NCBI GenBank assembly: GCA_049323915.1 | Contig: JBMOPC010000101.1 | Span: 1-32,000 of the forward strand | Length of the DNA stretch: 32,000 nt | Origin: Bacillota bacterium | GTDB lineage: Bacteria > Bacillota > Desulfotomaculia > Desulfotomaculales > Desulfocucumaceae | Direction of reading: 5' to 3' | Shown here: positions 1,416 through 31,542 of the stretch, piece after piece | Layout of the letters: every line of letters starts with the position of its first letter | Position numbering within the stretch: position 1 is the stretch's first letter | The notes under the pieces: model-generated | The model's database searches: none | What the model saw: only the letters and a program-made list of their open reading frames with translations | Told to the model about the DNA's origin: nothing | Position numbers and translations under genes: made by a program

Positions 1416-1573
1416 TTCCAAGGGGGTTAGCCAGCCCCTTTTGTTCAGTTATTTTTGCTGCTGCAGGAAGGTTTTGGCTTAACCCTGTAGTAAATAAAAA
1501 ATAATCAGAGTATTAACAGCCCTGGGGCAAAATAATTTTTAAGGCTGCATTTAAAATGTTGGAGGTATTAACT

Positions 1574-2431
1574 ATGCTTCGCACTGTGCTGTTTTCCCCG
1601 GCCAATGACGAAAGAAAAGCTGGCAAGGCCATGTCTTCGGGCGCGGACGCCATCACCCTGGACCTGGAGGACGCGGTGGCATACAGCCAGAAGGGGGCCG
1701 CCAGGGAATCCCTCAGGTCGATACTTTCCCAGCCCCCGCCCGTAAAGCTTTTTATCAGGGTTAATTCAGCCGCCTCAAAATACATACTGGATGACCTGGA
1801 GGCCGTGGTGGGCCTGCCCGTGGACGGTCTGATGCTGGCAAAGGCCGAATCCGCCGGGGAGGTGCTGAAAGTGGACTGGCTCCTGGGGCTGATAGAGGAA
1901 AAAAAGGGGCTGCCTACGGGAAAAACAAATCTTATTCCCTTTATTGAAAGCGCCGGAGGAATAATAAGTGTCTGTGAAATTGCCGCCTGTACCCCGCGCA
2001 TCAAGGCTCTGGCCTTCGGGGGAGTTGATTTTTCCCAGGAACTGGGTTTGCGGTATCCGTCTGAAAGCGACGGCCTATTCTTTGCCCGCTCCCAACTGGT
2101 GCTGGCGTCCAAAAAAGCCGGAATAGACCCGCCCCTGGATACGGTATTTCCTGACATCAAGAATACCGCCAGACTGGAATCAGAGGCTTGTATTGCAAGG
2201 AAGCTTGGCTTCCAGGGCAAGCTGGTCATTCACCCGGCCCAAGTGGAGCCGGTTAACCGGGCCTTCACCCCCACCCCTGAAGAAATAGAATATGCCCGCA
2301 AGGTGGTGGCGGCCTTTGACCAGGCCGAAAAAACCGGAACAGCGGTAATACAGGTGGACGGTAAAATGGTGGAATACCCAATATACAGGAGGTCAAGGTC
2401 TTTGCTGTCCAAATACGGCGCCGGCGGTTAA
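1574..2431 (+). CDS. HpcH/HpaI aldolase / citrate lyase beta subunit-like (CitE-like, citryl/malyl-CoA lyase family)
   Basis: The N-terminus MLRTVLFSPANDERKAGKA..SGADAITLDLEDAV is the classic CitE/HpcH signature. GGAGG at 1561-1565 favours ATG 1574 over the ORF-track start at 1556. Confidence 0.8.
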   Translation: MLRTVLFSPANDERKAGKAMSSGADAITLDLEDAVAYSQKGAARESLRSILSQPPPVKLFIRVNSAASKYILDDLEAVVGLPVDGLMLAKAESAGEVLKVDWLLGLIEEKKGLPTGKTNLIPFIESAGGIISVCEIAACTPRIKALAFGGVDFSQELGLRYPSESDGLFFARSQLVLASKKAGIDPPLDTVFPDIKNTARLESEACIARKLGFQGKLVIHPAQVEPVNRAFTPTPEEIEYARKVVAAFDQAEKTGTAVIQVDGKMVEYPIYRRSRSLLSKYGAGG

Positions 2432-3306: not shown

Positions 3307-3867
3307 CTACACGGCTTTTTCTCCGGCGGCCCCTCCTGCTACCGGCTTTGCTTCATCTTCATCCAGCAAATGTACATGCTTGAAATACGGCAGGTACGGC
3401 TTGGCTGCCGAGAATGCCAGCCTGCAGAGAAGGTATGAAACAAGAAAAGTGGCAAAGTAGCCGGTGGTCCAGTCATTGATAAAAAGAGGGAAACTGATCC
3501 CGGAAAAACGTATCTGCATCCAGGACAGCGCGAAAAAGGCCGGCCAGAGATACGAGGCCGAAAGCCCGAACATCCCGAAGAACAGCTGGCCGAAGGTATC
3601 GTTGGCCTCACGGTTTACTGCCTTGTAACTGGTCTTGTCCTTTAAGCGCAAGGCCACCAATGACGTTTCATTCAATTCCGCCAGGCGGGAGTTGAGCTTT
3701 TTGAAATAGCCCCTGTTGGCCCGGTATACCAGGGAGGTGGTAAAATCGCCTATCAGCACGGTAATCATGGCCAGCAACAATGTCCCGATAAAATAGTCCG
3801 GGACCGGCCAGCCGGTGATACGGTACAGATATATGAGAATTCCGTCCAGTCCGATCCACCAGTCCAT
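3307..3867 (-). CDS. Integral membrane protein of unknown function, downstream partner of the TauE/SafE gene
   Basis: Several hydrophobic segments flank a charged central loop. GGGGTG lies 5 nt upstream of ATG 3867. The gene is co-oriented with and 87 nt downstream of the TauE gene. Confidence 0.7.
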   Translation of the reverse strand: MDWWIGLDGILIYLYRITGWPVPDYFIGTLLLAMITVLIGDFTTSLVYRANRGYFKKLNSRLAELNETSLVALRLKDKTSYKAVNREANDTFGQLFFGMFGLSASYLWPAFFALSWMQIRFSGISFPLFINDWTTGYFATFLVSYLLCRLAFSAAKPYLPYFKHVHLLDEDEAKPVAGGAAGEKAV

Positions 3868-3954
3868 CACAACACCCCGTTTAAAGCATTAATGGCCATA
3901 GCCGGCGGCTATATACACACCGCCGGCACGGCAGGCAAGATACACTTATGTTTC

Positions 3955-5136
3955 TTAAATGGGAACCCAGGGCTGACCAAAGAATCCCTTGCTGAAGTAT
4001 CCAAGGCCAACGTAGAGGGCCAGCAACACGAACAGCCTCTTCAGCCAGATGTCGGGGATATACTTCTGGGTGCGGGGGCCAATCATAGATCCGATAAACA
4101 CACCCACCAGCTGTGTTCCGATAAGTGCCCAGTCCACGGCTGCGCCGGTGAAATTCAGGTAAGAGGCGATGCTCATCACCATGCTGGCCAGAACCGCCAG
4201 GGCCGATGTTCCGGCAACCACGAACATGGGAAGACCTACAAGGCTTGTCAGGTAGGGAACGTACAGGAAGCCGCCGCCCACGCCCAGGAAGGAGGATATG
4301 GCCGCTATAACCACACCGCCGAGGAATGCTAACAAGGGGTTAAAGCCAAACTCCGATCCGAAGAAGGAGAACTCGATTCTCGAAACGCCCCACTTGGTAA
4401 CCTTGATGCCTTCAGCAGAGGCGTCGCTTTTTTCCTTAACGCTCTTTTCAAAGGCCTGGGCTGCAGCCTTGGCAGCCTTTTTGCCCTCCTGCCCCTTGGG
4501 GGTGGTCTCGTACAGAAGGAATCCGCCGACCACGAACACGGCTACTCCAAACCAGCCCTGATAAGCGCTGAAAGAGATTTTGCCGCCTGTTAAAATGGGT
4601 ATAACAAGACCTCCGAAGAGTGATCCGAATCCCAGGGCAAGACCCAGAGGCCATGCAAGGCGCTTTGCCTTAAGGTAGTTAAGCGTGCCTATACCGGACG
4701 ACAGTCCCACAAGCCACTGGTTGGACATACGGATGCAGTCTGTAAGTACTTTGTTTAACTCTGGGGCTGTCTTTCTAAAGCTCTTGGCGTAGTCTCCCAG
4801 ACCGTACACAGTCATATGGCCCACACCAGCCATGATTCCACCGAAGGCTCCCACGGTGGTGAAGATCCAGCCAACCCAGACTGCCCAGAAGAAGGCCAGT
4901 ACCGGATTAACCTTGGGCGCGCCCGGGATTCCCAGGAATCCGGGCGCCGCCTTGGGGTCAATCTGGCCCGCACCGGTACCCATGGGAGCCTTGGCGATGG
5001 CCGCCCCCAGTTTGCCTTCCAGGCCCAGGTTGTTGCCTACCGGAGCTCCGGATGCCAGCGACCCGAACACCAGGCCGCCCAAAAGTATGACCAGAATAAA
5101 CAATGATGCCTTGAACAACAGCTTCTTTTTAAACAA
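3955..5136 (-). CDS. TauE/SafE (DUF81) family anion permease, long form with a charged central loop
   Basis: FLGVGGGFLYVPYLTSLVGLPMFVVAGTSALAV and a repeated GxxxG-rich TM architecture are typical of TauE/SafE. The start codon is TTG at 5136. Confidence 0.85.
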   Translation of the reverse strand: MFKKKLLFKASLFILVILLGGLVFGSLASGAPVGNNLGLEGKLGAAIAKAPMGTGAGQIDPKAAPGFLGIPGAPKVNPVLAFFWAVWVGWIFTTVGAFGGIMAGVGHMTVYGLGDYAKSFRKTAPELNKVLTDCIRMSNQWLVGLSSGIGTLNYLKAKRLAWPLGLALGFGSLFGGLVIPILTGGKISFSAYQGWFGVAVFVVGGFLLYETTPKGQEGKKAAKAAAQAFEKSVKEKSDASAEGIKVTKWGVSRIEFSFFGSEFGFNPLLAFLGGVVIAAISSFLGVGGGFLYVPYLTSLVGLPMFVVAGTSALAVLASMVMSIASYLNFTGAAVDWALIGTQLVGVFIGSMIGPRTQKYIPDIWLKRLFVLLALYVGLGYFSKGFFGQPWVPI

Positions 5137-5407: not shown

Positions 5408-5845
5408 TCATCTTGACGACAACTTTGCATTCTGCTCAGCAGATCTTGCATTAGAAACACCGGAATGATGAGACAAAAGATGGATAATGCTGTTAAGCAA
5501 AAACGGGTCGCAGTCCAGTATTTCCAGCAGGTCTTCCCCCCTGACCGACAAAACTGACACATCGCTTATCGCCCTGGCTGTGCAGGTCATCTTTTTCCCG
5601 TAAAAAACATCATCAAGGCCAAGCAAATCCCCCCTGGTCCTGACGGATACCACCTCGCGGCCAGGGTTCTCCGGCGGTCTGCTCAGTCTCACCGCTCCGG
5701 TTTCTATGAGGCAAAGTCTTGAAGAATCATCGCCCTGCCTAAAAATATACTGGCCCCTTTTATATTGGCACTCAGAACCACAATCCCTTAATATTTCCAT
5801 TTCGTACTCTTTCAATTTCCCAGGGCTGGATATAACGTATTTCAT
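5408..5845 (-). CDS. Stand-alone cyclic-nucleotide-binding (CRP-type effector) domain protein lacking an HTH
   Basis: RGQYIFRQGDDSSRLCLIETGAVRL...GREVVSVRTRGDLLGLDDVF...ARAISDVSVLSV is a cNMP-binding beta-roll. The protein is only 145 aa and has no helix-turn-helix. GGAGAGG precedes ATG 5845. Confidence 0.75.
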   Translation of the reverse strand: MKYVISSPGKLKEYEMEILRDCGSECQYKRGQYIFRQGDDSSRLCLIETGAVRLSRPPENPGREVVSVRTRGDLLGLDDVFYGKKMTCTARAISDVSVLSVRGEDLLEILDCDPFLLNSIIHLLSHHSGVSNARSAEQNAKLSSR

Positions 5846-6060
5846 CCTAAATCCTCTCCGGATAAACTGAATTAATAAAAAAAGCATACAAAAAATTTCA
5901 CAAAGAGAATGTCCATGATGCGACAATGGCAATGTCAGATGTTTCACAAAAAAGTAAAATGCAGTATTTGAGACCTCTTACCGGGCATCAGGCGACAACC
6001 CGCCAAGTGCTCCCACCCAGCTTTCAGGCCGGACTTTTGTCGGCTAGATGACATAATCAT

Positions 6061-6076
6061 TGTCACTACAGTGACA
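6061..6076. promoter_or_regulatory. Perfect CRP/FNR-family-type palindrome TGTCA-N6-TGACA
   Basis: The sequence is TGTCACTACAGTGACA. It lies in the divergent intergenic region between the cNMP-domain gene and the molybdoenzyme operon, about 40 bp upstream of an extended -10 TGATATAAT (6105-6113). Confidence 0.45.
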
Positions 6077-6307
6077 TGAAATCTGTGAAAAATTTGATAT
6101 TGTTTGATATAATCATGATTTATTATTTAGATAATTTATTCTTATACAGGGGAGGGACCGGTGGTTAAATAAGTTTTTGAGGTCGTTATCGCGCGCATAA
6201 GGTTTTTTAGTGAGTACCGCCGGGCTTTCGGGTTATGCCCCCGGCAGCAGATACTGGGCCCCGAATGGTCGGCGAACATCAGCAAAACAGGAGGGGAGAT
6301 TTGTTTT

Positions 6308-8389
6308 ATGCAGTATGTGTACAGCATTTGCCTCATGTGTACTGTAAGGTGTCCCATCAAGGTTATGGTAAAAAACGATGATGTCAAGCTGATTGAGGGC
6401 AACCCCTTTGTGGCGGGGATTGAGGGAAGCATCTGCCCCAAAGGAGCTGCCGGCGTAAACCTTTTGAACGACGACGAGAGAGTAAAAACACCTCTGATCA
6501 GGACAGGCCCCAGGGGATCCGGGCAGTGGAGAGAGGCCTCCTGGGACGAAGCATTGGACTACGTTGCCGATAAGCTCAAAGAAATCAAAGAAAAACACGG
6601 TGGACGCAGCATAGCCCTTACAGAAAGGGCCCACCTTAACTCGCATATAAGCAAGACCTTTATGAAAGCCATCGGGTCGCCCAACTACTTCACCCATGAT
6701 TCCTGCTGCAAGGGATCGTTAAACACGGCCTTCCGCTCACTTACCGGGTACGCGGACGGCAACGCTGGCGTAGACATTGCGAAAGCCAGGCATGTAATTC
6801 TTTATGGCCGCAACTATTTCGAAGCCATTGAGCTAAAGGTTGTCAAACAGCTTACCCAGGGAATGGACAAGGGAACAAAGCTCACCTATATCGATCCCAG
6901 GGTAACCGTGACGGCTACAAAAGCACATAAATACCTTATGATCAGGCCCGGCACCGACCTTGCCCTCAACTACGCCCTTATGCATGTGATAATCAAAGAA
7001 GGCTTATATGACAAGGAGTTCGTCAACAGGTGGGTTGTGGGCTTCAGGCAGCTGCAGAGCTTCGTTGAGCCTTTCTCCCCGAAGTGGGCGGAGCAGGAAA
7101 CCGGCATACCGGCCAACGAAATAATCGCCCTGGCCAGAGAGGCCGGCGAGGCCAAGCCTTCGGTAATCTTCCACTATGGTTACAGATGCTCTCACTATAC
7201 CAACGAGGTTTACTTCAGGAGATCTCTTATCATGCTTAACGCCCTGATGGGGAACATTGAAGCCCCCGGAGGTATATTCTTCAAAAAGGGAGCCAAGGAT
7301 TTCGGCAAAAAGCCTTTAAGAAAACTGGTGGACCAGGAACTTCCCAAGGTCACCGAGGCAAGGTGCGACGGGGTTGGAACACCCAAATTACCCACTCCGG
7401 ACCCGGCCCACGGGGTGGTGCAGATGCTTCCCAACGTAATTCTGTCGGAAGATCCGTACCCTGTTAAGGCAGTGCTGGTATGGCGCCACGACCCCATGCT
7501 CTCCATCCCGGACTACTATAAAAACAAGGAGGCCTTCAGCAAGCTGGACCTGCTGGTGGCAATCGACATTCACTTCAGTGAAACGGCATGGCTTGCCGAC
7601 GTAATTTTGCCGGAGTCCATTTACCTGGAGAGGGGAGACTCCATACAGGAGGCCAACGGCTTAAAGCCCAGCCTTGTGATGCGCAAGCCTGCGGTAACGC
7701 CCAGGTACGACACAAAGCCGGGCTGGGAAATAATGAAGCTTCTGGCCGACAGGCTTGGAATAGGACAGTACTTCCCCTACAACACACTGGAAGATCTTTG
7801 GGCGTACCAACTTGAGGGCACAGGCATCTCTATTGAGGACTTTGACGCCAAAGGATTCGTATCCCTCGCAAAGGACGCTCTCTACTGGGACCGCCAGGAC
7901 GGTATAAAACTGAAAACCCCTTCCGGAAAAATTGAGTTTGTTTCAAGCCTGTTTGAAAACAACGGCATACCATCATTCCCGCCCTACCAGCCGGTAGCCC
8001 CCCCGGAGGAAGGCACCTTCCGGCTGATGATAGGCAGGAATGTAGCACATACCCATGTTTCCACGCAGAACAACCCTCTTTTGAATGAGCTGGTGCCTGA
8101 AAACCTGCTGTGGATCAACACCCGCGAGGCCAAAAAGCTGGGAATTACCAACGGCCAGATGGTTGAAATATCTTCCAGCGTCGGAACAGAAACCATCCGC
8201 GCCTTTGTGACCGACCTCATCCACCCCGAGGCGGTGTTCATTCTCCACGGCTTCGGACGCAAAGTGCCGGTGCTGACGCGGTGCTACAACAAGGGAGCCA
8301 GCGACACCGCGCTGCAGGAAAACATTACCGATATGGTGGGAGGCAGCCCCGCGCTGCAGCATGTCTGCGTAAAGGTAAAGCCGCTTTAA
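6308..8389 (+). CDS. Molybdopterin (Mo/W-bisPGD) oxidoreductase catalytic subunit, Psr/Phs/Ttr/Arr-like, with no Tat signal
   Basis: An N-terminal C-x2-C-x3-C-x27-C 4Fe-4S motif starts at residue 8. IGSPNYFTHDSCCKGS resembles the GSPN-x-F-x-H-x-S-x-C active-site stretch of the polysulfide/thiosulfate reductase group. AGGAGGGGAG lies 9 nt upstream. Confidence 0.9.
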   Translation: MQYVYSICLMCTVRCPIKVMVKNDDVKLIEGNPFVAGIEGSICPKGAAGVNLLNDDERVKTPLIRTGPRGSGQWREASWDEALDYVADKLKEIKEKHGGRSIALTERAHLNSHISKTFMKAIGSPNYFTHDSCCKGSLNTAFRSLTGYADGNAGVDIAKARHVILYGRNYFEAIELKVVKQLTQGMDKGTKLTYIDPRVTVTATKAHKYLMIRPGTDLALNYALMHVIIKEGLYDKEFVNRWVVGFRQLQSFVEPFSPKWAEQETGIPANEIIALAREAGEAKPSVIFHYGYRCSHYTNEVYFRRSLIMLNALMGNIEAPGGIFFKKGAKDFGKKPLRKLVDQELPKVTEARCDGVGTPKLPTPDPAHGVVQMLPNVILSEDPYPVKAVLVWRHDPMLSIPDYYKNKEAFSKLDLLVAIDIHFSETAWLADVILPESIYLERGDSIQEANGLKPSLVMRKPAVTPRYDTKPGWEIMKLLADRLGIGQYFPYNTLEDLWAYQLEGTGISIEDFDAKGFVSLAKDALYWDRQDGIKLKTPSGKIEFVSSLFENNGIPSFPPYQPVAPPEEGTFRLMIGRNVAHTHVSTQNNPLLNELVPENLLWINTREAKKLGITNGQMVEISSSVGTETIRAFVTDLIHPEAVFILHGFGRKVPVLTRCYNKGASDTALQENITDMVGGSPALQHVCVKVKPL

Positions 8390-8436
8390 GGCGGTAGTTA
8401 TTTCGGACACCATTATTCAATCCAAGGAGGGCAATC

Positions 8437-8946
8437 ATGAGCAGCTATTATCTCTTCCATGACGATAAAAAATGTATATCCTGCCGGGCATGCCAGGTCC
8501 AGTGCAAGGTGAACAAGGGACTGGGAGTGGGACCCAAGACAAACCAGATTATCGAGGTGGGGCCGGATAAGGTGGACGACCCCAGGGCAGCCTATGTGTT
8601 CATGTCCTGTTTCCATTGCGAAAAGCCATGGTGCCTGGCCGCCTGCCCAAGCGGCGCCATACAGAAGCGCTCCGGTGACGGCATCATATTCATAGACCAG
8701 GAACTCTGCGTCGGCTGTAAAAGCTGCATTATTGCATGTCCCTGGAGCGCACCCCAGTGGGACCTGAAAAAAGGCATAGCGGTAAAATGCGACTACTGCA
8801 AGGACCGCGTTGATGCCGGGATGAAGCCGGCCTGCGTTACCGCCTGCCCCACCGACTGCCTTATTTTTGACACGGCGGACCATATCCCTGACGCAAAGCG
8901 CGTTAGATTTGCCAGGGATATTTACTCGCATAAGAGTATTAAATAA
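8437..8946 (+). CDS. Four-cluster 4Fe-4S electron-transfer subunit (PsrB/DmsB-like)
   Basis: Four Cys groups are present: CISCRACQVQC, CFHCEKPWCLAACP, CVGCKSCIIACP, CDYC...CVTACP. AAGGAGGG lies upstream. Confidence 0.9.
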   Translation: MSSYYLFHDDKKCISCRACQVQCKVNKGLGVGPKTNQIIEVGPDKVDDPRAAYVFMSCFHCEKPWCLAACPSGAIQKRSGDGIIFIDQELCVGCKSCIIACPWSAPQWDLKKGIAVKCDYCKDRVDAGMKPACVTACPTDCLIFDTADHIPDAKRVRFARDIYSHKSIK

Positions 8947-8958
8947 TGGGGTGAATTT

Positions 8959-11148
8959 ATGGCTGAAAGCGTCTGTATGGTCAAACATACAGAGGATATC
9001 ATCAACTTCTTTTTAAATGAGGAAACGTGCTGCAGCCTTTGCCGCCGCATGTTCAAAAATATTTTGAAGCAATTGGAGGCGGTAAGGGAAGGCAAGGCCT
9101 CCCAGGACCTGGACATCATCGAGACCATCGGCCTTTTAGCCGGTGACATCATGAATTCCTGCCGGTGTGACAGGGGCAGGCCGGTGGCTGAAAAGGTTGT
9201 CTCCATTGTAAGGGATAACATGGGGGACTTTGCCGCCCATATAGAAAAGAGGGTTTGCCCCACTGCCGAATGTCCACAGCTGGTGATCGCCCCCTGCCAG
9301 GCGGCCTGCCCCGCGGGTATCGACATCCCCAACTACGTCGCCCTGGTTGGAGAGGGCCGGCATGAAGAAGCCCTGGAACTTATCAGGGATGACGTTCCTT
9401 TACCCGGCGTATTGGGGCGGGTTTGCGAGCACCCCTGTGAGAAAGCATGCAGGAGGGGGCTGGTGGACAAACCTATCGCCATCTGCGCCCTGAAAAGGCT
9501 TGCTTACGACAATGTAAACATAACGGGCAATAAGCTTCCATCACCGCCTGAAAGAAAATACGACGAGAAAGTGGCAGTTGTGGGATCGGGGCCGGCAGGC
9601 CTTTCCTGCGCCTACTTCCTTGCCCGGAGAGGATATGGTGTGACCATATTCGAGGCCATGCCCGAGCCCGGTGGTATGCTGGCATACGGAATTCCACCCT
9701 ACAGGCTTCCCAGGGAGGTGCTCCGTGACGAAATAGACTATATAAGGGCAATGGGAGTGGAGATACGGGTTAACAGCCCAATCTCCGGAAGCTACGACAT
9801 CGAGGCGCTGAAAAAAGAAGGGTATTCCGCGGTTTTTTTAAGCTCCGGCGCCTGGGAGGGCTCAAAACCAACTATACCTAACCTTGACAAGTTTAAAGGC
9901 GTCTACGACGGGGTAACCTTCTTGAGAAATGTCAACGGAGCTCTTCTAAAAAATTCTGAAGATAAAGCCCCTGACGTTGAAGGTAAAAAAATCGTTGTGA
10001 TAGGCGGCGGAAACGTGGCCATAGACGCCGCCCGGGTTTCTTTGAGGCTGGGGGCAAGCGAGGTCAGGGTTGTTTACCGGAGGACCCGGGAAGAGATGCC
10101 GGCCTTAAAGGAAGAGATTGAAGACGCGGAAAAAGAGGGGGTCATAATTGACTACCTGGTGGCCCCCTCCAACGTAAGCGGTGAAGAAGGAAGGGTCAGG
10201 TACGTAGAGTGTGTAAGAAACACACTGAGCGATCCCGACAGCAGCGGCCGCCGCAGACCGGTCGCCATAAAGGACTCGGAGTTTAAAATCGAAGCTGACG
10301 CCGTTATATTTGCCACCGGCCAGCAGCCACTCCTTACCTATCTTAAGGGAAAACTGATGGTAACTCTGGTGGACGTTGCCCAGAAACGCATAATGGTGAA
10401 AAACCCGCTTACCATGGAAACTCACCAGCCCGGCGTTTTTTCGGGTGGTGACACCGTAACAGGGCCGGCCACAGTGATAATGGCCATAGCCGGGGGCAAG
10501 AGGGCTGCAGCCGGTATCGACGCCTACCTTCGCGGAAAGATACTGCTGGTGGACGTCACCAAGAACAAGAGGATCAGCAAAACCCTCATACCGGTTTCAG
10601 CCGATCAGAAGGCACGGCCCAGCCTTATCGACCCTCATCATCTCTACATGGCCGAAAAGAAAAACACCTTTGAGGAAATAGTCAGGGCTGTAAGCGAAGA
10701 GGCGGCACAGGCTGAGGCAATGCGTTGCCTGAGGTGCGATATCTGCATCTCCTGTGGAAAGTGCGTGGTAAACTGCCGCAACCAGGTAAAGGTAAACGCC
10801 ATACGGCTGGGATACATCAACAGCGAAGAAGGGCCTGAATCGGATTTCGTCCATTCCGAAGAGGCATGCATAGGCTGCGGGACATGTTTTGTCAACTGCC
10901 CCACCGGTGCCATTACCCTGGAAGACAAGGAAAAATTCCGGGAGATGCGGATGTGCGGGACATTGATGAGCCGCCTGGAACTGGTTGAGTGCCAGTTTTG
11001 CGGCCAGACCTTCGCCACTGTAAGACATCTAGATTTTATCAACCAGAACGTAAAAGTTAAATTTGCCGAGTATACAAGAAAAATTATATGCCCTGACTGC
11101 ATGCCAAAGGTAATTTCGAGGGCCACGTATGGAATAAAACCGGTATAA
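8959..11148 (+). CDS. NAD(P)H-dependent flavin/FeS oxidoreductase: NuoF-type FeS helical domain + GltD-like core + 2x[4Fe-4S] + CxxC...CxxC tail
   Basis: The GltD hallmarks are CQAACPAGIDIPNY, VCEHPCEKACRR, VAVVGSGPAGLSCAY and VVIGGGNVAIDAAR. The N-terminus (CCSLC...DLDIIE...SCRC...FAAHIEKRVC) resembles the NuoF 4Fe-4S region. The C-terminus carries CLRCDICISCGKC, CIGCGTCFVNCP and CQFC...CPDC. Confidence 0.9.
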   Translation: MAESVCMVKHTEDIINFFLNEETCCSLCRRMFKNILKQLEAVREGKASQDLDIIETIGLLAGDIMNSCRCDRGRPVAEKVVSIVRDNMGDFAAHIEKRVCPTAECPQLVIAPCQAACPAGIDIPNYVALVGEGRHEEALELIRDDVPLPGVLGRVCEHPCEKACRRGLVDKPIAICALKRLAYDNVNITGNKLPSPPERKYDEKVAVVGSGPAGLSCAYFLARRGYGVTIFEAMPEPGGMLAYGIPPYRLPREVLRDEIDYIRAMGVEIRVNSPISGSYDIEALKKEGYSAVFLSSGAWEGSKPTIPNLDKFKGVYDGVTFLRNVNGALLKNSEDKAPDVEGKKIVVIGGGNVAIDAARVSLRLGASEVRVVYRRTREEMPALKEEIEDAEKEGVIIDYLVAPSNVSGEEGRVRYVECVRNTLSDPDSSGRRRPVAIKDSEFKIEADAVIFATGQQPLLTYLKGKLMVTLVDVAQKRIMVKNPLTMETHQPGVFSGGDTVTGPATVIMAIAGGKRAAAGIDAYLRGKILLVDVTKNKRISKTLIPVSADQKARPSLIDPHHLYMAEKKNTFEEIVRAVSEEAAQAEAMRCLRCDICISCGKCVVNCRNQVKVNAIRLGYINSEEGPESDFVHSEEACIGCGTCFVNCPTGAITLEDKEKFREMRMCGTLMSRLELVECQFCGQTFATVRHLDFINQNVKVKFAEYTRKIICPDCMPKVISRATYGIKPV

Positions 11149-11334: not shown

Positions 11335-12003
11335 TTATGTTATCCACTTTGCCAGTTTGTCCGGGTCCAGTATCCTTATTCCCCGCCCCTCGTATGCAAT
11401 GCTCTTCTCGGTTTTAAATGTGTTCAGCAGGGATGTAACGGTCTGCCTCGATGTACCCACCATATTGGCCAGTTCCTCGTGGGTAAGCTGAAGGTTTAAC
11501 CTTATACCGCTTTTGGATTCCTCACCGCAGCGCTCTCCCATTTTAAGCAGCATAAGGGCAAGCCTCCCGGGCGCCTGCCAGCAGACCATCTCATGTATGA
11601 TGGCCTCAGCATCCCTCATCCTGGCGCCCAGCAGCTTGGCCACCTTCAGTCCCAGAACTGAATGCCTGGCCAGCAGCTCTTCAAACTTATTCTTCCTTAT
11701 TATAACCAGGCTTACATTGTTGATGGCCCCGGCAAAGCAGGTCCTTTCACCGCCCCAGAGTGTTTCCGCCAGCCCCATCATCTCTCCGGGACTTCTGATG
11801 CTGCCCACAGTGACCCGGCGCCCGTCGGGAGAAAGGCGGTATATCTTTACCCAGCCGCTTTCGATTAGAAATATCCTGTCGGCAATATCACCCGCTGAAA
11901 AAATGATGTGGTTTTTGGGGTAATGGACAGTGGATCCTGCCTCCCGCAGCAACATTTTTTCAACTTCGTCAAGAGTAGGGAAATCTATACTTGAAAGAGA
12001 CAA
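11335..12003 (-). CDS. Crp/Fnr family transcriptional regulator (cNMP-binding domain + C-terminal HTH)
   Basis: The effector domain reads IIFSAGDIADRIFLIESGWVKIYRLSPDGRRV. The HTH reads THEELANMVGTSRQTVTSLLNTF. There is no FNR-type N-terminal Cys cluster. GGAAGGAGG lies 8 nt upstream of TTG 12003; the ORF-track ATG at 12036 lies upstream of that SD. Confidence 0.85.
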   Translation of the reverse strand: MSLSSIDFPTLDEVEKMLLREAGSTVHYPKNHIIFSAGDIADRIFLIESGWVKIYRLSPDGRRVTVGSIRSPGEMMGLAETLWGGERTCFAGAINNVSLVIIRKNKFEELLARHSVLGLKVAKLLGARMRDAEAIIHEMVCWQAPGRLALMLLKMGERCGEESKSGIRLNLQLTHEELANMVGTSRQTVTSLLNTFKTEKSIAYEGRGIRILDPDKLAKWIT

Positions 12004-12246
12004 GACAAAAACCTCCTTCCCCGAAAATAAATACATTCACTTCTAGTTCTTACCTGCATTATCCTTTAATATCAGGAATAATATTTTGAATTTTCATTTT
12101 ATTCTCAGAAACCCTGGATAAGGGCGCTTATTCCCTTAAATATCGTAGTTAATTATACAATATCCGCAAAAAGCATGTCAATTCGACATTGGCTTTTCAC
12201 TCTCACCCTAAGAGGCGCGTATTTACCGTCTGGCGGATTGAATATT

Positions 12247-12283: not shown

Positions 12284-13252
12284 CTAACCCACCCTGGAGC
12301 TACCCATAAAGTATTTGAGCTCATAGAGGAGGTTGTTGAATATATCTTTGACTGAGAGTATATCCTTTATCTGATGGACATTCTGACCTACAAAAACAAC
12401 CCCTTCCTCCACTTTGCCGGTCCTGGAGTTCTCCAGGGCGTTCATTATGCAATACTGGCCGCTGCACTGCTTGAGGCAGCCCTCACACTGATCCGGGGCC
12501 GGCGCCTCGCCTGAAAGCAGTTTTGAAACGAAGCTGTTTTTCAACGCCCTGCCCGGCATTCCCACCGGGCTGGGTATTACCGTTACGTCTTCGGGCCTTG
12601 CCTTCAGGTACATTTTCTTAAACATGTCGGAGACACTGCATTCCTTGCTTAAAACAAACCTGGTGGCCATCTGGACCCCGTCGGCCCCCATCTTGAAAGC
12701 CTTGGAAATCCCTTCACCGTTTACAATCCCCCCGGCAGCCAGCATGGGTATTTTTATAGCTTCCCTAATGGATGGCATCAGCTCAAAAAGAGGCCTGTCC
12801 GTGCCAAGGTGCCCCCCGGCCTCGGTCCCCTCGACCACCACGGCCGCCGCGCCGTATTTCTCCGCAGCTGCAGCCAGTCTGGCCGAAGACACTATGGAAA
12901 CTATTGGTACGCCGTATTCCTTTCCCCATTTGAAAATGTCCCTGGAAAACCCGGCCCCGGTGAATATCAGGTCCACCTTTTCCTCTATGGCCGTTTTGAC
13001 CATGTCGGTAAATTCCCTTATGGCAAACATTATATTTACACCCACAATACCCTTGCTTAGCCGCTTGGCTTCCCTTATTTCAGCCCGCAGCTCCTCCAGT
13101 CCCATACCTGTGGCCCCGATTACCCCTATTCCTCCCGCCTCAGCCACCGCAGCCGCCAGTGAAGAGGTGGAAACCCTCAGCGCCATACCTCCCTGCACGA
13201 TGGGGAAAGCCGGAGAAAGGTCCCCTATCTTAAGTTTAGGGAGTTGTATCAT
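12284..13252 (-). CDS. NAD(P)H-dependent flavin oxidoreductase, nitronate monooxygenase / FabK-like family
   Basis: PIVQGGMA...SLAAAVAEAGGIGVIG...VVVEGTEAGGHLG...PMLAAGGI..G....AF.MGADGVQMATRF is the NMO/enoyl-ACP reductase II TIM-barrel pattern. An extra Cys-rich C-terminus reads CEGCLKQCSGQYC. Confidence 0.85.
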   Translation of the reverse strand: MIQLPKLKIGDLSPAFPIVQGGMALRVSTSSLAAAVAEAGGIGVIGATGMGLEELRAEIREAKRLSKGIVGVNIMFAIREFTDMVKTAIEEKVDLIFTGAGFSRDIFKWGKEYGVPIVSIVSSARLAAAAEKYGAAAVVVEGTEAGGHLGTDRPLFELMPSIREAIKIPMLAAGGIVNGEGISKAFKMGADGVQMATRFVLSKECSVSDMFKKMYLKARPEDVTVIPSPVGMPGRALKNSFVSKLLSGEAPAPDQCEGCLKQCSGQYCIMNALENSRTGKVEEGVVFVGQNVHQIKDILSVKDIFNNLLYELKYFMGSSRVG

Positions 13253-13745: not shown

Positions 13746-13790
13746 CGCAATTTCTAAAATTCATTTTCGTGGGGGTGAATGCCACCTTTT

Positions 13791-15713
13791 ATGGAATGTC
13801 AGGGATATGTCGGAAAAATACTTGATATTGACCTTTCGACGGGAACTTTTCTGTGTAAGGACCTGCCGGAAGATTTAATCCGAAGTCACCTCGGCGGAAT
13901 AGGGTTTAACGCATCCATACTTTACAGGGAGCTAAGCCCGGGAACAAACCCTCTCGGGCCGGGCAACATACTGGCCTTCAGCACCGGACCCCTGGTGGGC
14001 AGCAACATCCCCACCTCCTGCCGCACCGAGGCGTCGGCCCTCTCCCCGGCCACAGGGCTTTTCGGCACTTCAAATTCGGGCAACTACTGGGGCGGGGAGC
14101 TTAAATACGCGGGATACGACAGTCTTATCATAAGGGGCAGGGCCAGCAAGCCCGTGTATATCCTGATTTGTGACGGAGAAGTTAAAATTCTTCCCGCTGA
14201 TCACCTCTGGGGAAAAGATGCGTGGGACGCCATCAGCACAATACAAAAAGACCTGGACGATATCGAAATACAGGTGGCGGCAATCGGCCAGGCAGGCGAA
14301 AACCTCGTCCGCTTCGCCAGCATTGAAAACGGGCCCTATGACGCATGGGCCAGAACCGGGCTGGGCGCGGTCATGGGCAGCAAGAACCTCAAGGCTGTGG
14401 CCGTCAGGGGCACCGGGCCGGTAAGAGTGGCCAGTCCCAGGGATTTAGCCGGGACCCTAGAAAAAACCCGCCAGGCAATATTCAGCTCCCCCTTTTACGG
14501 GCCCTTTGAAAAATTCGGAACCATGCTGATAACCTTACCCTATTATGAATTCGGCATACTTCCGGGACGCAACTTCCAAACCGGCACCCCGGAAGGCTGG
14601 ATGGAGACAAGGACCCGCAAGCAGCTTCCAGGGCTGACAAAGCGCGGGGTCTCCTGCATGTCGTGCCCCATAGCCTGCGCCCACTGGGTGGAGGTAAAAG
14701 AAGGCCGCTATGCCGGACTCCGGCTAAAGGATATGGAGGTTACTCCGGTTATAGGATTCGGCGCCGGATGCGACATCAGGGACCTTCCGGCTATTGCGGC
14801 CATCTGTGGGGAGTGCCAGCGTTACGGCATGGACATGGTGTCGGCTGCGGCATCCATTGCCTTTGCCATGGAAATGTATCAGAGGGGGCATATCACCAGA
14901 GACGACCTGGGATTCGACCTTTCCTGGGGAGATGAGGACGGAACCTTTAAGCTTCTGGAAATGATAGCCCTGCGCCGGGGCATAGGAAACATACTGGCCG
15001 AAGGGACACGGCTGGCTGCCGCAAAGTTCCCGGGAGCCGAGGCATTGGCCGTACATGTCAAGGGGCTTGAATACATGCTGGCCGACCCCAGGGGGCGCTG
15101 GTCCACCTGGACATTCGGCAGCATCACCAACATCCGGGGAGGCGACCACCTCCGCACCAGGAACCCGGTGGAAAACCTGAAATACAATGAAAATCCCATT
15201 CCCTACCGCACGGAAAAATTCGGGCTCACCGACTACTTCTACGACACCCTGGACATGTCGGAAGAACTCAAAAAGCATGTTTTCGACCCGGCCACCAGGG
15301 ACGTAAACGTACCCCTCATGTCAAAATGGTCCGAAGACCTCATCACAGTGTATAACTCGGTGGGAATGTGCATAAGGCCACCGGTTCTGCACACCGTAGG
15401 CCCCACTCTTTTTTCGGAAATGATAAAGTCCTTAAGCGGACATGAAATTACCCCGGAAGAGATAATGACAGCCGGGGAGCGCATCTGGAACACAATAAAG
15501 CTGTTTAATATAAGGCACGGTGAAAAGCCTGAACACTCCGATTACCCTGCCAGGTTTTACAATGAGGAGCTAAAAACACCCGCAGGCCCGAAAAAGCTTG
15601 ACCCCGAAGCAGTCAGGTCCGCCCTTTCCGAGTATTACGCCGCCAGGGGATGGGACCCGGTCACCGGAGCGCCAACCCCGGAAAAACTGAAGGAGTTAGG
15701 AATTGAAGTTTAG
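13791..15713 (+). CDS. Aldehyde:ferredoxin oxidoreductase family (tungstopterin) enzyme
   Basis: The N-terminus GYVGKILDIDLSTG, the motif ELKYAGYDSLIIRGRASKPVY, the cluster ligands C-x2-C-x3-C (CMSCPIAC) and a distal Cys (VGMC) all fit the family. ATG 13791 is preferred over 13779, which abuts the GGGGGTG SD. Confidence 0.9.
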   Translation: MECQGYVGKILDIDLSTGTFLCKDLPEDLIRSHLGGIGFNASILYRELSPGTNPLGPGNILAFSTGPLVGSNIPTSCRTEASALSPATGLFGTSNSGNYWGGELKYAGYDSLIIRGRASKPVYILICDGEVKILPADHLWGKDAWDAISTIQKDLDDIEIQVAAIGQAGENLVRFASIENGPYDAWARTGLGAVMGSKNLKAVAVRGTGPVRVASPRDLAGTLEKTRQAIFSSPFYGPFEKFGTMLITLPYYEFGILPGRNFQTGTPEGWMETRTRKQLPGLTKRGVSCMSCPIACAHWVEVKEGRYAGLRLKDMEVTPVIGFGAGCDIRDLPAIAAICGECQRYGMDMVSAAASIAFAMEMYQRGHITRDDLGFDLSWGDEDGTFKLLEMIALRRGIGNILAEGTRLAAAKFPGAEALAVHVKGLEYMLADPRGRWSTWTFGSITNIRGGDHLRTRNPVENLKYNENPIPYRTEKFGLTDYFYDTLDMSEELKKHVFDPATRDVNVPLMSKWSEDLITVYNSVGMCIRPPVLHTVGPTLFSEMIKSLSGHEITPEEIMTAGERIWNTIKLFNIRHGEKPEHSDYPARFYNEELKTPAGPKKLDPEAVRSALSEYYAARGWDPVTGAPTPEKLKELGIEV

Positions 15714-30855: not shown

Positions 30856-31542
30856 TCAGGTAATGCCCAGCTGATTAAGCAAGGGTTTTGTTATTGAGAT
30901 GAAATCAGCAAATTTCCTGGCAGCTTGAGCCACATCTCCGTAAACTGTTTCAATTGGAAGCAAAATCTTTAACCTGTATTTGCCTGTGGCCTCCACCTTG
31001 GGAAGTTCCCTATCCAGAACGCTTCCCAATTTTTTTTCTATCTCGGATTTAAGATCCAGAAGGGGCAGGAAGATATTCTTTTTGTGACCGTCCATCACCA
31101 GATCCAGCACCAGAAATTCCTGCCCCCTGTTGGGCCCTTTCCTCGGCCTGGTTTTGCCTATCCTGTAATATATGTCGGTTTTGGCAAACACCTTTACACA
31201 TTTCCATGACTCGGTTATGCCAAGGCTCTGTCCTGGCAGAATATAGACAATGTTGATGTTTTTGGGGGCCAGCAAGTTCTTGACCTCCAATAACACTTCA
31301 TCCACAAATTCCTCAAATGTTTTTGTGTTTATGGAAACATCTTTTCGGGACGGCACGTTTTCTTCCTTCAGCCATTTCTCAAACCAGTCCAGCACCCTTT
31401 TATGATCCAGCTTACCATCCGGACCAATGAAGGATTTTTCGATCTGTTTTTTTTCCATATCTTTAAGGAAAGCTTTTTTTCTGCGGTTAAAAATATCGAT
31501 AAAATTTTTATCGGTCACGGCATACCGCTCCCTTTGCAACAT
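30856..31542 (-). CDS. Hypothetical soluble protein (228 aa), AT-rich gene
   Basis: A clean ORF with lysine-rich composition. No motif recognised with confidence. Confidence 0.65.
   Translation of the reverse strand: MLQRERYAVTDKNFIDIFNRRKKAFLKDMEKKQIEKSFIGPDGKLDHKRVLDWFEKWLKEENVPSRKDVSINTKTFEEFVDEVLLEVKNLLAPKNINIVYILPGQSLGITESWKCVKVFAKTDIYYRIGKTRPRKGPNRGQEFLVLDLVMDGHKKNIFLPLLDLKSEIEKKLGSVLDRELPKVEATGKYRLKILLPIETVYGDVAQAARKFADFISITKPLLNQLGIT

What the first reader, a model, noticed from the sequence alone, without database searches (positions are those of the whole stretch)
6308..11148. Signal-less Psr/Phs-type molybdoenzyme wired to an NAD(P)H flavoprotein instead of a membrane anchor
Three tightly spaced co-oriented genes encode the module.
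- Catalytic subunit: a Mo/W-bisPGD protein whose active-site stretch IGSPNYFTHDSCCKGS resembles the polysulfide/thiosulfate/tetrathionate/arsenate reductase group.
- Electron-transfer subunit: a four-cluster PsrB-like FeS protein.
- Third subunit: a 729-aa fusion of a NuoF-type FeS helical domain, a GltD/NfnB-like FAD+NAD(P)H core, two ferredoxin-type clusters and a CxxC...CxxC tail.

Textbook members of this group carry a twin-arginine leader and dock to a PsrC/NrfD-type quinol-oxidising membrane subunit. Here the Cys cluster starts at residue 8, so there is no leader, and no membrane subunit is encoded. The donor module is instead a soluble pyridine-nucleotide flavoprotein of the kind used in NfnAB/SudAB-type enzymes. 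That predicts a cytoplasmic NAD(P)H-coupled (possibly ferredoxin-coupled) reductase for an unknown substrate. The divergently placed TauE/SafE anion permease (3955-5136) hints at a sulfur oxyanion, but that link is pure inference.
Basis: partly seen in the sequence, partly recalled or inferred. Interest (0 to 1): 0.7.

Follow-up and report, generated by a model that had tools for sequence, protein, structure and literature searches.

The report
Cytoplasmic NADPH-linked thiosulfate-reductase-like molybdoenzyme operon
Three adjacent genes encode a soluble molybdenum enzyme, closely related to thiosulfate reductase, that is wired to an NADPH-binding flavoprotein instead of a membrane anchor; it sits next to its own anion permease and regulator, and could be the unidentified electron-input route of the "cytoplasmic thiosulfate reductase" of sulfate-reducing bacteria.

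Summary
Genes at 6308-8389, 8437-8946 and 8959-11148 encode three proteins. The first is a leaderless PhsA/PsrA-like Mo-bisPGD subunit. The second is a 16-Cys, four-cluster ferredoxin subunit. The third is a 729-aa flavoprotein with a GltD/NfnB-like NADPH core. No Tat leader is possible and the window holds no NrfD/PsrC-type anchor.

The gene triad is conserved in every checkable relative, in Bacillota and in Desulfobacterota. This holds whether the search starts from the catalytic subunit or from the flavoprotein. A TauE permease, a 187-aa membrane protein, a CRP/FNR regulator and a TGTCA-N6-TGACA operator are co-conserved with it. The sulfur-anion link is therefore more than inference.

The catalytic subunit belongs to an all-leaderless clade (bootstrap 100/100) that is sister to true PhsA (74/100). 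Leaderless "PhsAB-like" enzymes are already discussed as putative cytoplasmic thiosulfate reductases. They have not been characterised, and the papers I read name no redox partner.

Most likely this is an inducible thiosulfate import and NADPH-dependent cleavage system. The substrate is inferred. I rate it a new variant of a known kind, of moderate to high interest.

The parts
6308..8389 (+). MopA: catalytic Mo/W-bisPGD subunit, PhsA/PsrA-like, 693 aa, with no Tat leader. N-terminal [4Fe-4S] Cys are 8, 11, 15 and 43. The predicted Mo ligand is Cys134.
   Evidence: Pfam gives three MopB domains. NCBIfam PhsA NF012032 scores 606.7 bits against a 694 cut-off, and the match starts at model position 43. 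PDB 2vpw PsrA matches at 2.8e-120, with Cys173 aligned to Cys134. Position 6308 is the first start after a stop.
8437..8946 (+). FeSB: four-cluster [4Fe-4S] electron-transfer subunit (PsrB/DmsB type), 169 aa.
   Evidence: Fer4_11 at 3.5e-25. DmsB, NrfC, HybA and TtrB models match. It has 17 Cys, 16 of them in four cluster motifs. It follows MopA in all related loci.
8959..11148 (+). GltDC: 729-aa flavoprotein. Residues 1-96 form a NuoF-C-terminal-like helical vestige. Residues ~100-530 form the GltD/NfnB-like core with two [4Fe-4S] clusters, FAD and an NADPH site. Residues ~590-729 form a HycF/NuoI-like 2x[4Fe-4S] domain that ends in an invariant CxxC...CxxC.
   Evidence: AlphaFold model pLDDT is 89.8. 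Foldseek to NfnB 5jca_L gives TM 0.81, rmsd 2.5 A and 41% identity. The FAD and NADPH motifs and Y373-R374-R375 are invariant. The N-terminal domain aligns with the NuoF part of fused homologues.
6061..6076 (.). TGTCACTACAGTGACA: candidate CRP/FNR-family operator (TGTCA-N6-TGACA) 247 nt upstream of the MopA start.
   Evidence: The same palindrome type occurs at the equivalent position in L001, L002, L003, L005, L007 and L010. In Desulfofundulus (L011, L018) it lies between the regulator gene and TauE. In most of these 14-18 kb loci it is the only strict match; L007 has a further full match and the window, L001, L002 and L005 a half-matching second site. It is conserved in the alignment.
6085..6113 (+). 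Promoter-like site GTGAAA-17-TATAAT with an extended -10, directly downstream of the operator.
   Evidence: 10 of 12 matches. The -10 is conserved in relatives. This is a consensus match only.
11335..12036 (-). CRP/FNR-family regulator (cNMP_binding + HTH_Crp_2), convergent with the operon.
   Evidence: It is retained next to the module at 74-97% identity in Bacillota loci, whatever the gene order.
5408..5947 (-). cNMP-binding protein of 179 aa with no detectable HTH, divergent from MopA.
   Evidence: It is weakly conserved (34-62%) in close relatives only. Its role is unknown.
3955..5136 (-). TauE/SafE-family anion permease. The true start is probably downstream of the TTG listed.
   Evidence: Pfam TauE. 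It has multiple hydrophobic segments. It is adjacent to the enzyme genes in 13 of the 19 family loci from the genome scan, and in Desulfobacterota loci L023, L024 and L026.
3307..3870 (-). orf187: conserved membrane protein with no Pfam family, always paired with the TauE gene.
   Evidence: There are 78 homologues, all unnamed. It lies next to TauE in every context read. The model has pLDDT 89.6 and long helices. Resemblance to TMCO1/EMC3 is only weak.

Best explanation
This is an inducible, fully cytoplasmic reductase system for a sulfur anion, most probably thiosulfate.

Proposed working:
1. The TauE permease, with its 187-aa partner protein, brings the anion into the cell.
2. The 729-aa flavoprotein takes a hydride from NADPH on FAD.
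3. Single electrons then pass through its two GltD-type [4Fe-4S] clusters and its C-terminal ferredoxin-type clusters.
4. They continue through the four clusters of the small subunit and the N-terminal cluster of the catalytic subunit.
5. They reach the Mo/W-bisPGD centre (ligand Cys134), which cleaves the S-S bond of thiosulfate to sulfide and sulfite.
6. Sulfite is consumed by the host's dissimilatory sulfite reductase. This pulls a reaction that is slightly uphill under standard conditions.
7. The adjacent CRP/FNR-type regulator controls the operon through the TGTCA-N6-TGACA site.

What is shown: the gene and domain anatomy, the lack of an export signal and of an anchor, the co-conservation, and the homology of the flavoprotein to NADPH-binding modules. 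What is inferred: that the three proteins form one complex, the direction of electron flow, the substrate, and the regulation.
For: Anatomy.

No leader and no anchor.

Triad conservation:
- All 19 family loci from the genome scan have the triad where sequence allows. They include Desulfobacterota at 58-63% (MopA) and 39-45% (flavoprotein) identity.
- Contexts of distant flavoprotein homologues again show MopA-FeSB upstream.
- A MopA only 47% identical keeps the same partners.
- The gaps are short (47 and 12 nt), with no convincing terminator between the genes.

Catalytic subunit: it is closest to PhsA (606.7 bits; the next family scores 303). It sits in a leaderless clade (100/100) that is sister to the clade holding true PhsA (74/100). 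Those true PhsA representatives score 998 and 1058 bits.

NADPH module: the closest solved relatives are the GltD-like NADPH input domains of StnC and NfnA, and NfnB. In Stn this domain is a non-bifurcating NADPH entry point (PMC10482914). The YRR motif is shared with those NADPH binders.

Thiosulfate link:
- TauE and orf187 are co-conserved with the enzyme genes.
- In Desulfovibrio, a TauE + 195-aa hypothetical (+ DUF169) cluster was proposed to be a leaky thiosulfate transporter, and mutants were mildly sick on thiosulfate (PMC4001038).
- In Dissulfuribacter thermophilus, a leaderless PhsAB-like pair and a TauE + membrane-protein pair rise during thiosulfate disproportionation (PMC13490349).
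- G20 phsAB mutants have their lowest fitness on thiosulfate (PMC4215793).

Regulation: the operator is conserved. Desulfovibrio phcAB was predicted to belong to a CRP/FNR-type regulon (PMC545781).

Hosts: the named hosts are almost all sulfate-reducing lineages.
Against: No biochemical or genetic data exist for this family.

Orthology to the Desulfovibrio and Dissulfuribacter proteins in the cited studies could not be tested. I had no access to their sequences.

The score is below NCBI's PhsA equivalog cut-off. Substrates of Psr/Phs-type enzymes cannot be read from sequence, as PMC12998232 also states.

From my own knowledge of standard potentials (-402 mV for thiosulfate/HS- + HSO3-, -320 mV for NADPH), the reaction is about +16 kJ/mol uphill under standard conditions. 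It needs product removal.

Complex formation is inferred from synteny only. One locus (L029) has FeSB and the flavoprotein next to TauE-orf187 with no MopA visible. Related loci replace the three enzyme genes with a DUF169 gene. The module is therefore not obligatory.

TauE-family members are better known as exporters.
Confidence: 0.55

Rival explanations
1. The architecture is the same but the sulfur substrate differs. The enzyme reduces polysulfide or elemental-sulfur-derived species, tetrathionate or trithionate with NADPH, as Psr or Ttr enzymes do outside the cell.
For: The only solved close relative is the Thermus polysulfide reductase (2vpw, 2.8e-120). NADPH-driven polysulfide reduction would be downhill (my own knowledge: about -260 mV). 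The score is below the PhsA cut-off. A rhodanese gene lies near one relative's cluster (L026).
Against: The family is closer to true PhsA than to Thermus PsrA: about 40% identity and E 4e-149 to a PhsA-passing representative. An inner-membrane anion permease suits a small oxyanion better than polysulfide. The proteomic and fitness hints in related systems concern thiosulfate.
Confidence: 0.15
2. The system runs oxidatively. The molybdoenzyme oxidises sulfite (or condenses sulfide and sulfite) and passes the electrons to NADP+. This would act as a cytoplasmic sulfite dehydrogenase during sulfite or thiosulfate disproportionation, with TauE moving sulfite or sulfate.
For: Leaderless, cytoplasm-facing Psr-like complexes have been proposed to oxidise sulfite in green sulfur bacteria (quoted in PMC3906813). 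Pfam names TauE a sulfite exporter. From my own knowledge, both sulfite oxidation and thiosulfate formation could reduce NADP+ exergonically.
Against: The hosts are mostly ordinary sulfate reducers rather than obligate disproportionators. None of the NCBIfam families listed is a sulfite dehydrogenase; PhsA is the top match. In the cited proteomics the pair was lower on sulfite/H2 than on thiosulfate.
Confidence: 0.08
3. The substrate is a non-sulfur oxyanion (nitrate, chlorate, selenate/selenite or arsenate). The system would be a cytoplasmic NAD(P)H-dependent detoxifying or assimilatory reductase, in the manner of NasBC-type nitrate reductases.
For: Soluble MopB plus NAD(P)H flavoprotein is the design of assimilatory nitrate reductases (my own knowledge). 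Public names include 'Nitrate reductase' for the Desulfofundulus kuznetsovii orthologue and 'putative selenate reductase YgfK subunit' for the flavoprotein. Disrupting the Desulfovibrio TauE cluster gives nitrate resistance (PMC4001038).
Against: NasC, Nap, Nar, Ynf and Arr models score 70-206 bits against 606.7 for PhsA. The public names are automatic. The authors of the nitrate study themselves argue that nitrate is not the native substrate.
Confidence: 0.07
4. The flavoprotein is not a subunit of the molybdoenzyme. It is an independent NADPH oxidoreductase that merely shares the operon, and MopA-FeSB receives electrons from ferredoxin or another carrier.
For: Complex formation was not tested. 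Desulfovibrio phcAB/phsAB is reported as a two-gene unit. L029 has FeSB and the flavoprotein without MopA. The flavoprotein varies in form: 625, 720, 930 and 1130 aa.
Against: Adjacency survives about 40% sequence divergence, gene-order changes (L015) and searches from either protein. The gap is 12 nt. FeSB plus the flavoprotein together reproduce the domain make-up of AegA/YgfT. GltD-type modules always feed clusters of a partner.
Confidence: 0.07

Closest known systems
PhsABC thiosulfate reductase (Salmonella type; NCBIfam NF012032) and PsrABC polysulfide reductase (Thermus thermophilus, PDB 2vpw)
   Same: The catalytic subunit has the same three MopB domains, an N-terminal [4Fe-4S] and a Cys Mo ligand. 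The small subunit is a four-cluster protein. PhsA is the best family match (606.7 bits) and PsrA the best solved structure. The family is a sister clade to true PhsA.
   Different: There is no Tat leader and no PhsC/PsrC quinol-oxidising anchor, so the enzyme is cytoplasmic and not quinol-linked. The score is below the equivalog cut-off. A 729-aa NADPH flavoprotein takes the place of the third subunit.
Leaderless 'PhsAB-like' pairs of sulfate reducers and sulfur disproportionators (Dissulfuribacter thermophilus DITHS69_2027-2028, Desulfolithobacter dissulfuricans PhsAB, Desulfovibrio phsAB/phcAB)
   Same: These have no Tat signal and no C subunit, and are predicted to be cytoplasmic. They occur in the same kinds of organisms and are proposed to cleave thiosulfate (PMC13490349, PMC9751629, PMC4215793, PMC545781).
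   Different: Those reports treat a two-subunit enzyme whose electron donor is unknown. Here a flavoprotein gene is a constant third member. Orthology to those particular proteins was not testable here.
GltD/NfnB-type NADPH modules: NfnB (5jca_L), StnC (8oh5_C), NfnA of NfnABC (9bov_A, 9n5u_A), glutamate synthase small subunit, dihydropyrimidine dehydrogenase
   Same: The core (residues ~100-530) is 33-41% identical to the Nfn/Stn modules (28-31% to GltD and DPD), has the same fold, two [4Fe-4S] clusters, and FAD and NADPH sites. StnC also joins this module to a MopB-like domain.
   Different: No NfnA, HydB or HydC partner is encoded nearby. The MopB partner here has a complete catalytic make-up, whereas in StnC it is inactive. 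There is an extra N-terminal NuoF-like vestige and a C-terminal HycF-like domain.
AegA/YgfT of E. coli (four-cluster ferredoxin domain fused to a GltD-like domain, acting with formate dehydrogenase H)
   Same: FeSB matches the N-terminal part of AegA and the flavoprotein matches its GltD-like part. Together they repeat that domain make-up next to a MopB enzyme.
   Different: They are separate genes. The partner is PhsA-like rather than FdhF-like. The function of AegA/YgfT is itself only partly known (my own knowledge).
Cytoplasmic NAD(P)H-dependent polysulfide reductase with thiosulfate reductase activity of Thermotoga maritima (PMC9431562)
   Same: The proposed chemistry is the same: NAD(P)H-driven reduction of polysulfide or thiosulfate in the cytoplasm (title and abstract).
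   Different: According to its abstract, that enzyme was identified by similarity to archaeal NAD(P)H-dependent enzymes; from my own knowledge these are flavoprotein sulfur reductases without molybdenum. It is a functional analogue, not a relative.

Membership tests
PhsA thiosulfate reductase (NCBIfam NF012032, equivalog) | Whole-protein score at or above the curated cut-off of 694 bits | tested here: not met
   The score is 606.7 bits. True members among the representatives score 998 and 1058 bits.
PhsA thiosulfate reductase (NCBIfam NF012032, equivalog) | Twin-arginine leader for export | tested here: not met
   The match starts at model position 43. The first Cys is residue 8. No upstream start codon exists.
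PhsA thiosulfate reductase (NCBIfam NF012032, equivalog) | Thiosulfate reductase activity | not testable with these tools
   This needs an enzyme assay.
Complex iron-sulfur molybdoenzymes of Psr/Phs type (A+B+C) | Mo/W-bisPGD catalytic subunit with an N-terminal [4Fe-4S] and a Cys metal ligand | tested here: met
   Three Pfam domains are present. The cluster Cys are C8, C11, C15 and C43. Cys134 aligns with PsrA Cys173.
Complex iron-sulfur molybdoenzymes of Psr/Phs type (A+B+C) | Four-cluster ferredoxin subunit encoded next to A | tested here: met
   Fer4_11 is present, with 16 Cys in four motifs.
Complex iron-sulfur molybdoenzymes of Psr/Phs type (A+B+C) | NrfD/PsrC-type integral membrane quinol-oxidising subunit | tested here: not met
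   None of the window ORFs scanned (most of those of at least 110 aa) has such a domain. None is found in 20+ related loci.
Leaderless 'PhsAB-like' cytoplasmic thiosulfate reductase candidates (literature group) | PhsA-like and PhsB-like genes adjacent, with no Tat signal and no C subunit | tested here: met
   The literature definition is in PMC13490349.
Leaderless 'PhsAB-like' cytoplasmic thiosulfate reductase candidates (literature group) | Orthology to the proteins studied (DITHS69_2027-2028, GF1_30490/10120, Dde_1075-1076) | not testable with these tools
GltD/NfnB-like NADPH iron-sulfur flavoproteins | Fer4_20 two-cluster domain plus two Rossmann folds with FAD and NADPH motifs | tested here: met
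   Fer4_20 at 8.8e-19 and Pyr_redox_2 at 1.4e-26. The GxGPAG, GGGNxAxD and YRR motifs are invariant. The fold matches NfnB with TM 0.81.
NfnAB / Stn / NfnABC electron-bifurcating transhydrogenases | Second nucleotide-binding partner (NfnA, or HydB/NuoF with FMN and HydC/NuoE) | tested here: not met
   No such gene was found among the window ORFs scanned. Only a NuoF C-terminal vestige remains. Even the fused 1130-aa homologues lack the NADH and FMN glycine-rich loops.
TauE/SafE (TSUP) anion permeases | Pfam PF01925 match and a polytopic membrane protein | tested here: met
   The score is 82.1 bits against a cut-off of 32.6. Several hydrophobic segments are present. The transported substrate is not testable.

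The most novel reading that the evidence does not exclude
The NfnB-like FAD of the third subunit is a bifurcating flavin. On this reading it splits the NADPH electron pair. One low-potential electron stream goes through FeSB to the molybdenum site, which makes reduction of the very negative thiosulfate couple (-402 mV) possible. The other stream goes to a still unidentified higher-potential acceptor, through the extra N- or C-terminal clusters. This would be the first flavin-based electron-bifurcating molybdoenzyme of sulfur metabolism. It would also explain why the module descends from NuoF+GltD assemblies of the Stn/NfnABC kind.
Probability: 0.08. Interest if true: 0.85.

Novelty: new variant of a known kind. 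Interest (0 to 1): 0.58.

Why it matters
Soluble thiosulfate reductase activity in sulfate reducers has been known for decades (my own knowledge). Recent genome and proteome papers still state that leaderless PhsAB has never been analysed functionally. They also regard the missing C subunit as essential for contact with quinone, the usual co-substrate (PMC9751629; PMC13490349).

A flavoprotein gene that is a constant third member of the operon, from Bacillota to Desulfobacterota, gives a concrete and testable answer: NADPH. Together with a dedicated permease pair and regulator, it defines a complete import-and-cleave module. That module could be used as a marker in sulfur-cycle genomics.

It also shows a Psr/Phs-type enzyme rebuilt on the soluble pyridine-nucleotide plan. 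From my own knowledge, that plan is otherwise established for formate dehydrogenases and assimilatory nitrate reductases.

Tried and rejected
- Upstream Tat leader: rejected. An in-frame stop lies 45 codons upstream, there is no start codon between it and 6308, and the chance 'RRAFGL' there has no hydrophobic core.
- Riboswitch in the ~190-nt leader: no Rfam match at the gathering threshold or at E<=1. The leader is poorly conserved.
- Formate-dehydrogenase or nitrate-reductase identity: those models score far lower.
- Functional NuoF module: the window protein has only a helical remnant without CxxCxxC. The fused 1130-aa homologues lack the NADH and FMN glycine-rich loops. An NADH site is therefore unlikely, and this lowers the bifurcation reading.
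- D. amilsii PhsAB as a precedent: it has a Tat signal, so it is a different case.
- Supplementary tables of PMC13490349, to see the neighbours of DITHS69_2027-2028: none are held.
- Pereira et al. 2011 comparative genomics paper: not held.
- Fold of orf187: only weak TMCO1-like matches (E 0.05), so inconclusive.
- Literature searches for phsA with gltD, NuoF or NADPH partners found no description of this three-gene architecture. This covers the held open-access library only.

Full report
**The observation**

The three ORFs are at the stated coordinates, co-oriented, and separated by 47 and 12 nt.
- Protein 1 (693 aa) carries the Molybdop_Fe4S4, Molybdopterin and Molydop_binding domains.
- Protein 2 (169 aa) is a Fer4_11 protein. 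Sixteen of its 17 Cys form four cluster motifs.
- Protein 3 (729 aa) carries Fer4_20, Pyr_redox_2 and a C-terminal dicluster domain.

The NADH_4Fe-4S match of protein 3 is below Pfam's cut-off in the window protein (E 4.6e-4). It passes in Desulfofundulus orthologues (27.8 bits). The region also aligns with the NuoF part of homologues that carry a whole NuoF-like module.

None of the three proteins has a hydrophobic segment.

**No export signal, no anchor**

Position 6308 is the first ATG/GTG/TTG after an in-frame stop. The 45 codons upstream contain no start codon and no signal-like hydrophobic stretch. A strong ribosome-binding site lies at 6290-6298.

The match to NCBI's PhsA model begins at model position 43, that is, after the leader. 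The first cluster cysteine is residue 8.

No NrfD/PsrC-type protein is encoded among the window ORFs scanned, nor in the related loci read.

**What the catalytic subunit is**

PhsA (NF012032) is by far the best family, at 606.7 bits. The next best is formate dehydrogenase alpha at 303 bits. The score is under the curated 694-bit cut-off.

The best solved structure is the Thermus polysulfide reductase PsrA (2.8e-120). Its Mo-ligand Cys173 aligns with Cys134 of the quoted HDSCCKGS stretch.

I searched all 1.84 billion cluster representatives and built a neighbour-joining tree of 132 full-length relatives.
- The family falls in a clade made only of leaderless proteins.
- That clade is sister to a Tat-bearing clade. 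Two of the sister clade's members pass the PhsA cut-off, at 998 and 1058 bits.
- Bootstrap support is 100/100 for the leaderless clade, 100/100 for the core family and 74/100 for the sister relation.
- The method is a distance tree without named reference enzymes other than PhsA, so it fixes the neighbourhood, not the substrate.

**What the third protein is**

Residues 111-646 match the GltD-like NADPH-binding parts of NfnA of Caldicellulosiruptor NfnABC (9bov_A, 1.8e-120), StnC of Sporomusa (8oh5_C) and Thermococcus NfnA. NfnB, glutamate synthase small subunit and dihydropyrimidine dehydrogenase follow.

An AlphaFold model built on 41 homologues is confident (pLDDT 89.8, pTM 0.89). It superposes on Pyrococcus NfnB with TM 0.81 and rmsd 2.5 A.

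The following are invariant in the family:
- the FAD motif (G209-x-G211-P-A-G214);
- the NADPH motif (G349-G-G-N-x-A-x-D356);
- Y373-R374-R375, also present in the NADPH-binding StnC and NfnA;
- eight Cys of the Fer4_20 region;
- ten Cys of the ferredoxin-like region;
- C678, C681, C711 and C714.

The C-terminal 594-715 matches a HycF-type iron-sulfur subunit model. In Stn, the homologous domain is a plain, non-bifurcating NADPH entry point that feeds iron-sulfur clusters (PMC10482914).

FeSB and the flavoprotein together reproduce the domain make-up of E. coli AegA/YgfT.

**Conservation**

A scan of one genome per species gave 19 loci of this family (MopA 58-95% identical).
- FeSB follows MopA in all 19.
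- The flavoprotein is adjacent in all 18 with enough sequence. In one of these it lies upstream (L015), and in one it is split into two ORFs (L012).
- The loci include Desulfofundulus, Desulfovirgula and Peptococcaceae MAGs. They also include Desulfobacterota, where the flavoprotein is only 39-45% identical.

The reverse test also holds. Distant flavoprotein homologues from Desulfoglaeba alkanexedens and a deltaproteobacterial MAG sit directly after MopA-FeSB. In the MAG, MopA is only 47% identical to the query. A Desulfobacca locus and another MAG show the same triad.

**The module is larger than the finding**

A TauE permease and a 187-aa membrane protein without any Pfam family (orf187) accompany the enzyme genes in 13 of the 19 scan loci. 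In Desulfofundulus, Desulfovirgula and two MAGs they are co-oriented directly upstream, in the order regulator-TauE-orf187-MopA-FeSB-flavoprotein. The pair also accompanies the enzyme genes in Desulfobacterota (L019, L023, L024, L026).

orf187 homologues are next to a TauE gene in every context read.

A CRP/FNR-type regulator stays with the module at 74-97% identity.

A TGTCA-N6-TGACA palindrome at 6061-6076 recurs at the equivalent position in six close loci. In Desulfofundulus it lies between the regulator and TauE. It is the only strict match in most of these 14-18 kb loci (L007 has a second), against about 0.07 expected per locus. It is followed by a conserved TATAAT.

**Literature**

- Leaderless PhsAB lacking PhsC is described as a predicted cytoplasmic thiosulfate reductase in Dissulfuribacter thermophilus. 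Both subunits were among the proteins most increased during thiosulfate disproportionation, and a TauE protein with 'an associated transmembrane protein' also rose (PMC13490349).
- In Desulfovibrio alaskensis G20, phsAB mutants have their lowest fitness on thiosulfate (PMC4215793).
- The Desulfovibrio operon was predicted to belong to a CRP/FNR-type regulon (PMC545781).
- In Desulfovibrio, a cluster with a TauE-like gene, a 195-aa conserved hypothetical and, in G20, a DUF169 gene gives nitrate resistance when disrupted. The authors proposed 'a leaky thiosulfate transporter', and the mutants were mildly sick on thiosulfate (PMC4001038).
- I could not test whether these proteins are orthologues of the window's.
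- None of the papers I could search mentions a GltD-like partner.

**Mechanism**

Shown:
- a soluble, leaderless PhsA-like enzyme;
- a four-cluster subunit;
- an NADPH-type iron-sulfur flavoprotein inherited with them as a unit;
- an anion permease pair and a regulator.

Inferred:
- the three proteins form one complex;
- electrons run from NADPH to FAD, then through two GltD-type clusters, the C-terminal clusters, four FeSB clusters and the MopA cluster to Mo;
- thiosulfate is cleaved to sulfide and sulfite.

From standard potentials (my own knowledge: -402 mV against -320 mV), the reaction is about +15.8 kJ/mol uphill. It becomes favourable when sulfite and sulfide are kept low, as a sulfite-reducing host would do. 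The same numbers keep the reverse direction, and a bifurcating variant, in play.

**Rivals**

The rivals are:
- another sulfur substrate (polysulfide, tetrathionate, trithionate);
- an oxidative role in sulfite or thiosulfate metabolism;
- a non-sulfur oxyanion;
- a flavoprotein that is merely a neighbour.

They are set out with their evidence in the rival list. None is excluded by sequence. The last is the least likely, given that the linkage holds from both ends.

**Variation worth noting**

- Desulfobacca, Desulfoglaeba and a MAG have an 1130-aa third subunit with a whole NuoF-like module. It lacks the NADH and FMN glycine-rich loops, so it is probably a cofactor-less relic. The window protein keeps only its last helical domain. 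This points to descent from NuoF+GltD assemblies like Stn/NfnABC, and lowers the chance of an NADH site.
- Desulfofundulus fuses a chemoreceptor signalling domain to the flavoprotein.
- Two loci keep regulator-TauE-orf187 but carry a DUF169 gene in place of the three enzyme genes.

**Verdict**

It is not categorically new, because leaderless PhsAB is a recognised but uncharacterised entity. The conserved NADPH flavoprotein subunit, the dedicated permease pair and the operator together define a variant that I did not find described. They make the question of the electron donor directly testable.

Noticed in passing
L011:10649-13447 and L018:10631-13417 (Desulfofundulus); next genes L011:13530-15410 and L013:12818-14692: In Desulfofundulus the GltD-like third subunit (about 930 aa) carries a C-terminal methyl-accepting-chemotaxis signalling domain. 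The next gene is a dCache_3-HAMP-MCP chemoreceptor. A redox flavoprotein fused to a chemoreceptor output suggests taxis coupled to this enzyme's substrate or redox state.
   Followed up: partly
L023:4485-7880, L024:9001-12405, L026:12816-16208: Desulfobacterota versions of the third subunit are about 1130 aa with a full NuoF-like module fused in front. The NADH and FMN glycine-rich loops and the CxxCxxC motif are absent, so the module looks like a cofactor-less relic. The window protein retains only its last helical domain (residues 1-96).
   Followed up: yes
L027:6594-12008 and L028:934-5590: Close relatives of the regulator (81%), TauE (75%) and orf187 (58%) flank a DUF169 gene where the three enzyme genes would be. 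G20's 'nitrate cluster' likewise joins DUF169 with a TauE-like gene and a small hypothetical (PMC4001038). DUF169 may be an alternative partner of this permease pair.
   Followed up: partly
window 3307-3870 (-): orf187 belongs to a conserved, unnamed family of about 170-200-aa membrane proteins that always sit next to TauE. The confident model (pLDDT 89.6) shows long helices. It resembles TMCO1/EMC3-type proteins only weakly (Pfam E 0.0036; Foldseek E 0.05).
   Followed up: partly
window 5933-5948: A second, half-matching palindrome (TGTCAGATGTTTCACA) overlaps the start of the divergent 179-aa cNMP-binding gene. It is conserved in L001, L002 and L005.
   Followed up: no
window 1556-2431 (+); also L004, L006, L011, L013, L018, L027, L028: An HpcH/HpaI (CitE-like) lyase gene stays within a few kb of the module in Bacillota through several gene-order changes, but is absent from the Desulfobacterota loci. 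Its relation to the system is unexplained.
   Followed up: no
window 29828-30820 (+): A second TauE-family permease gene lies in the same window, next to an unannotated 228-aa ORF on the opposite strand (30856-31542).
   Followed up: no
window 12284-13252 (-) and 13779-15713 (+): A nitronate-monooxygenase-family flavoprotein gene and a tungsten-type aldehyde:ferredoxin oxidoreductase gene follow the regulator. They are syntenic in the closest relatives only (L001, L003, L005, L007, L009, L010).
   Followed up: no
L025:6296-8397, L012:10662-12841, L029:3476-7013: Irregular copies occur. MopA is split into 528 + 186 aa (L025). The flavoprotein is split into 420 + 306 aa (L012). One locus has FeSB and the flavoprotein beside TauE-orf187 with no MopA gene (L029). 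These may be frameshifts, decay or real variants.
   Followed up: no
window 6114-6307: There is a roughly 190-nt leader between the predicted promoter and the start codon. It has no Rfam match and little conservation among relatives.
   Followed up: yes
L015:7135-7974: One relative has an FdhD/NarQ-family gene between the flavoprotein and MopA genes. The window itself has no molybdoenzyme chaperone or cofactor-biosynthesis gene.
   Followed up: no
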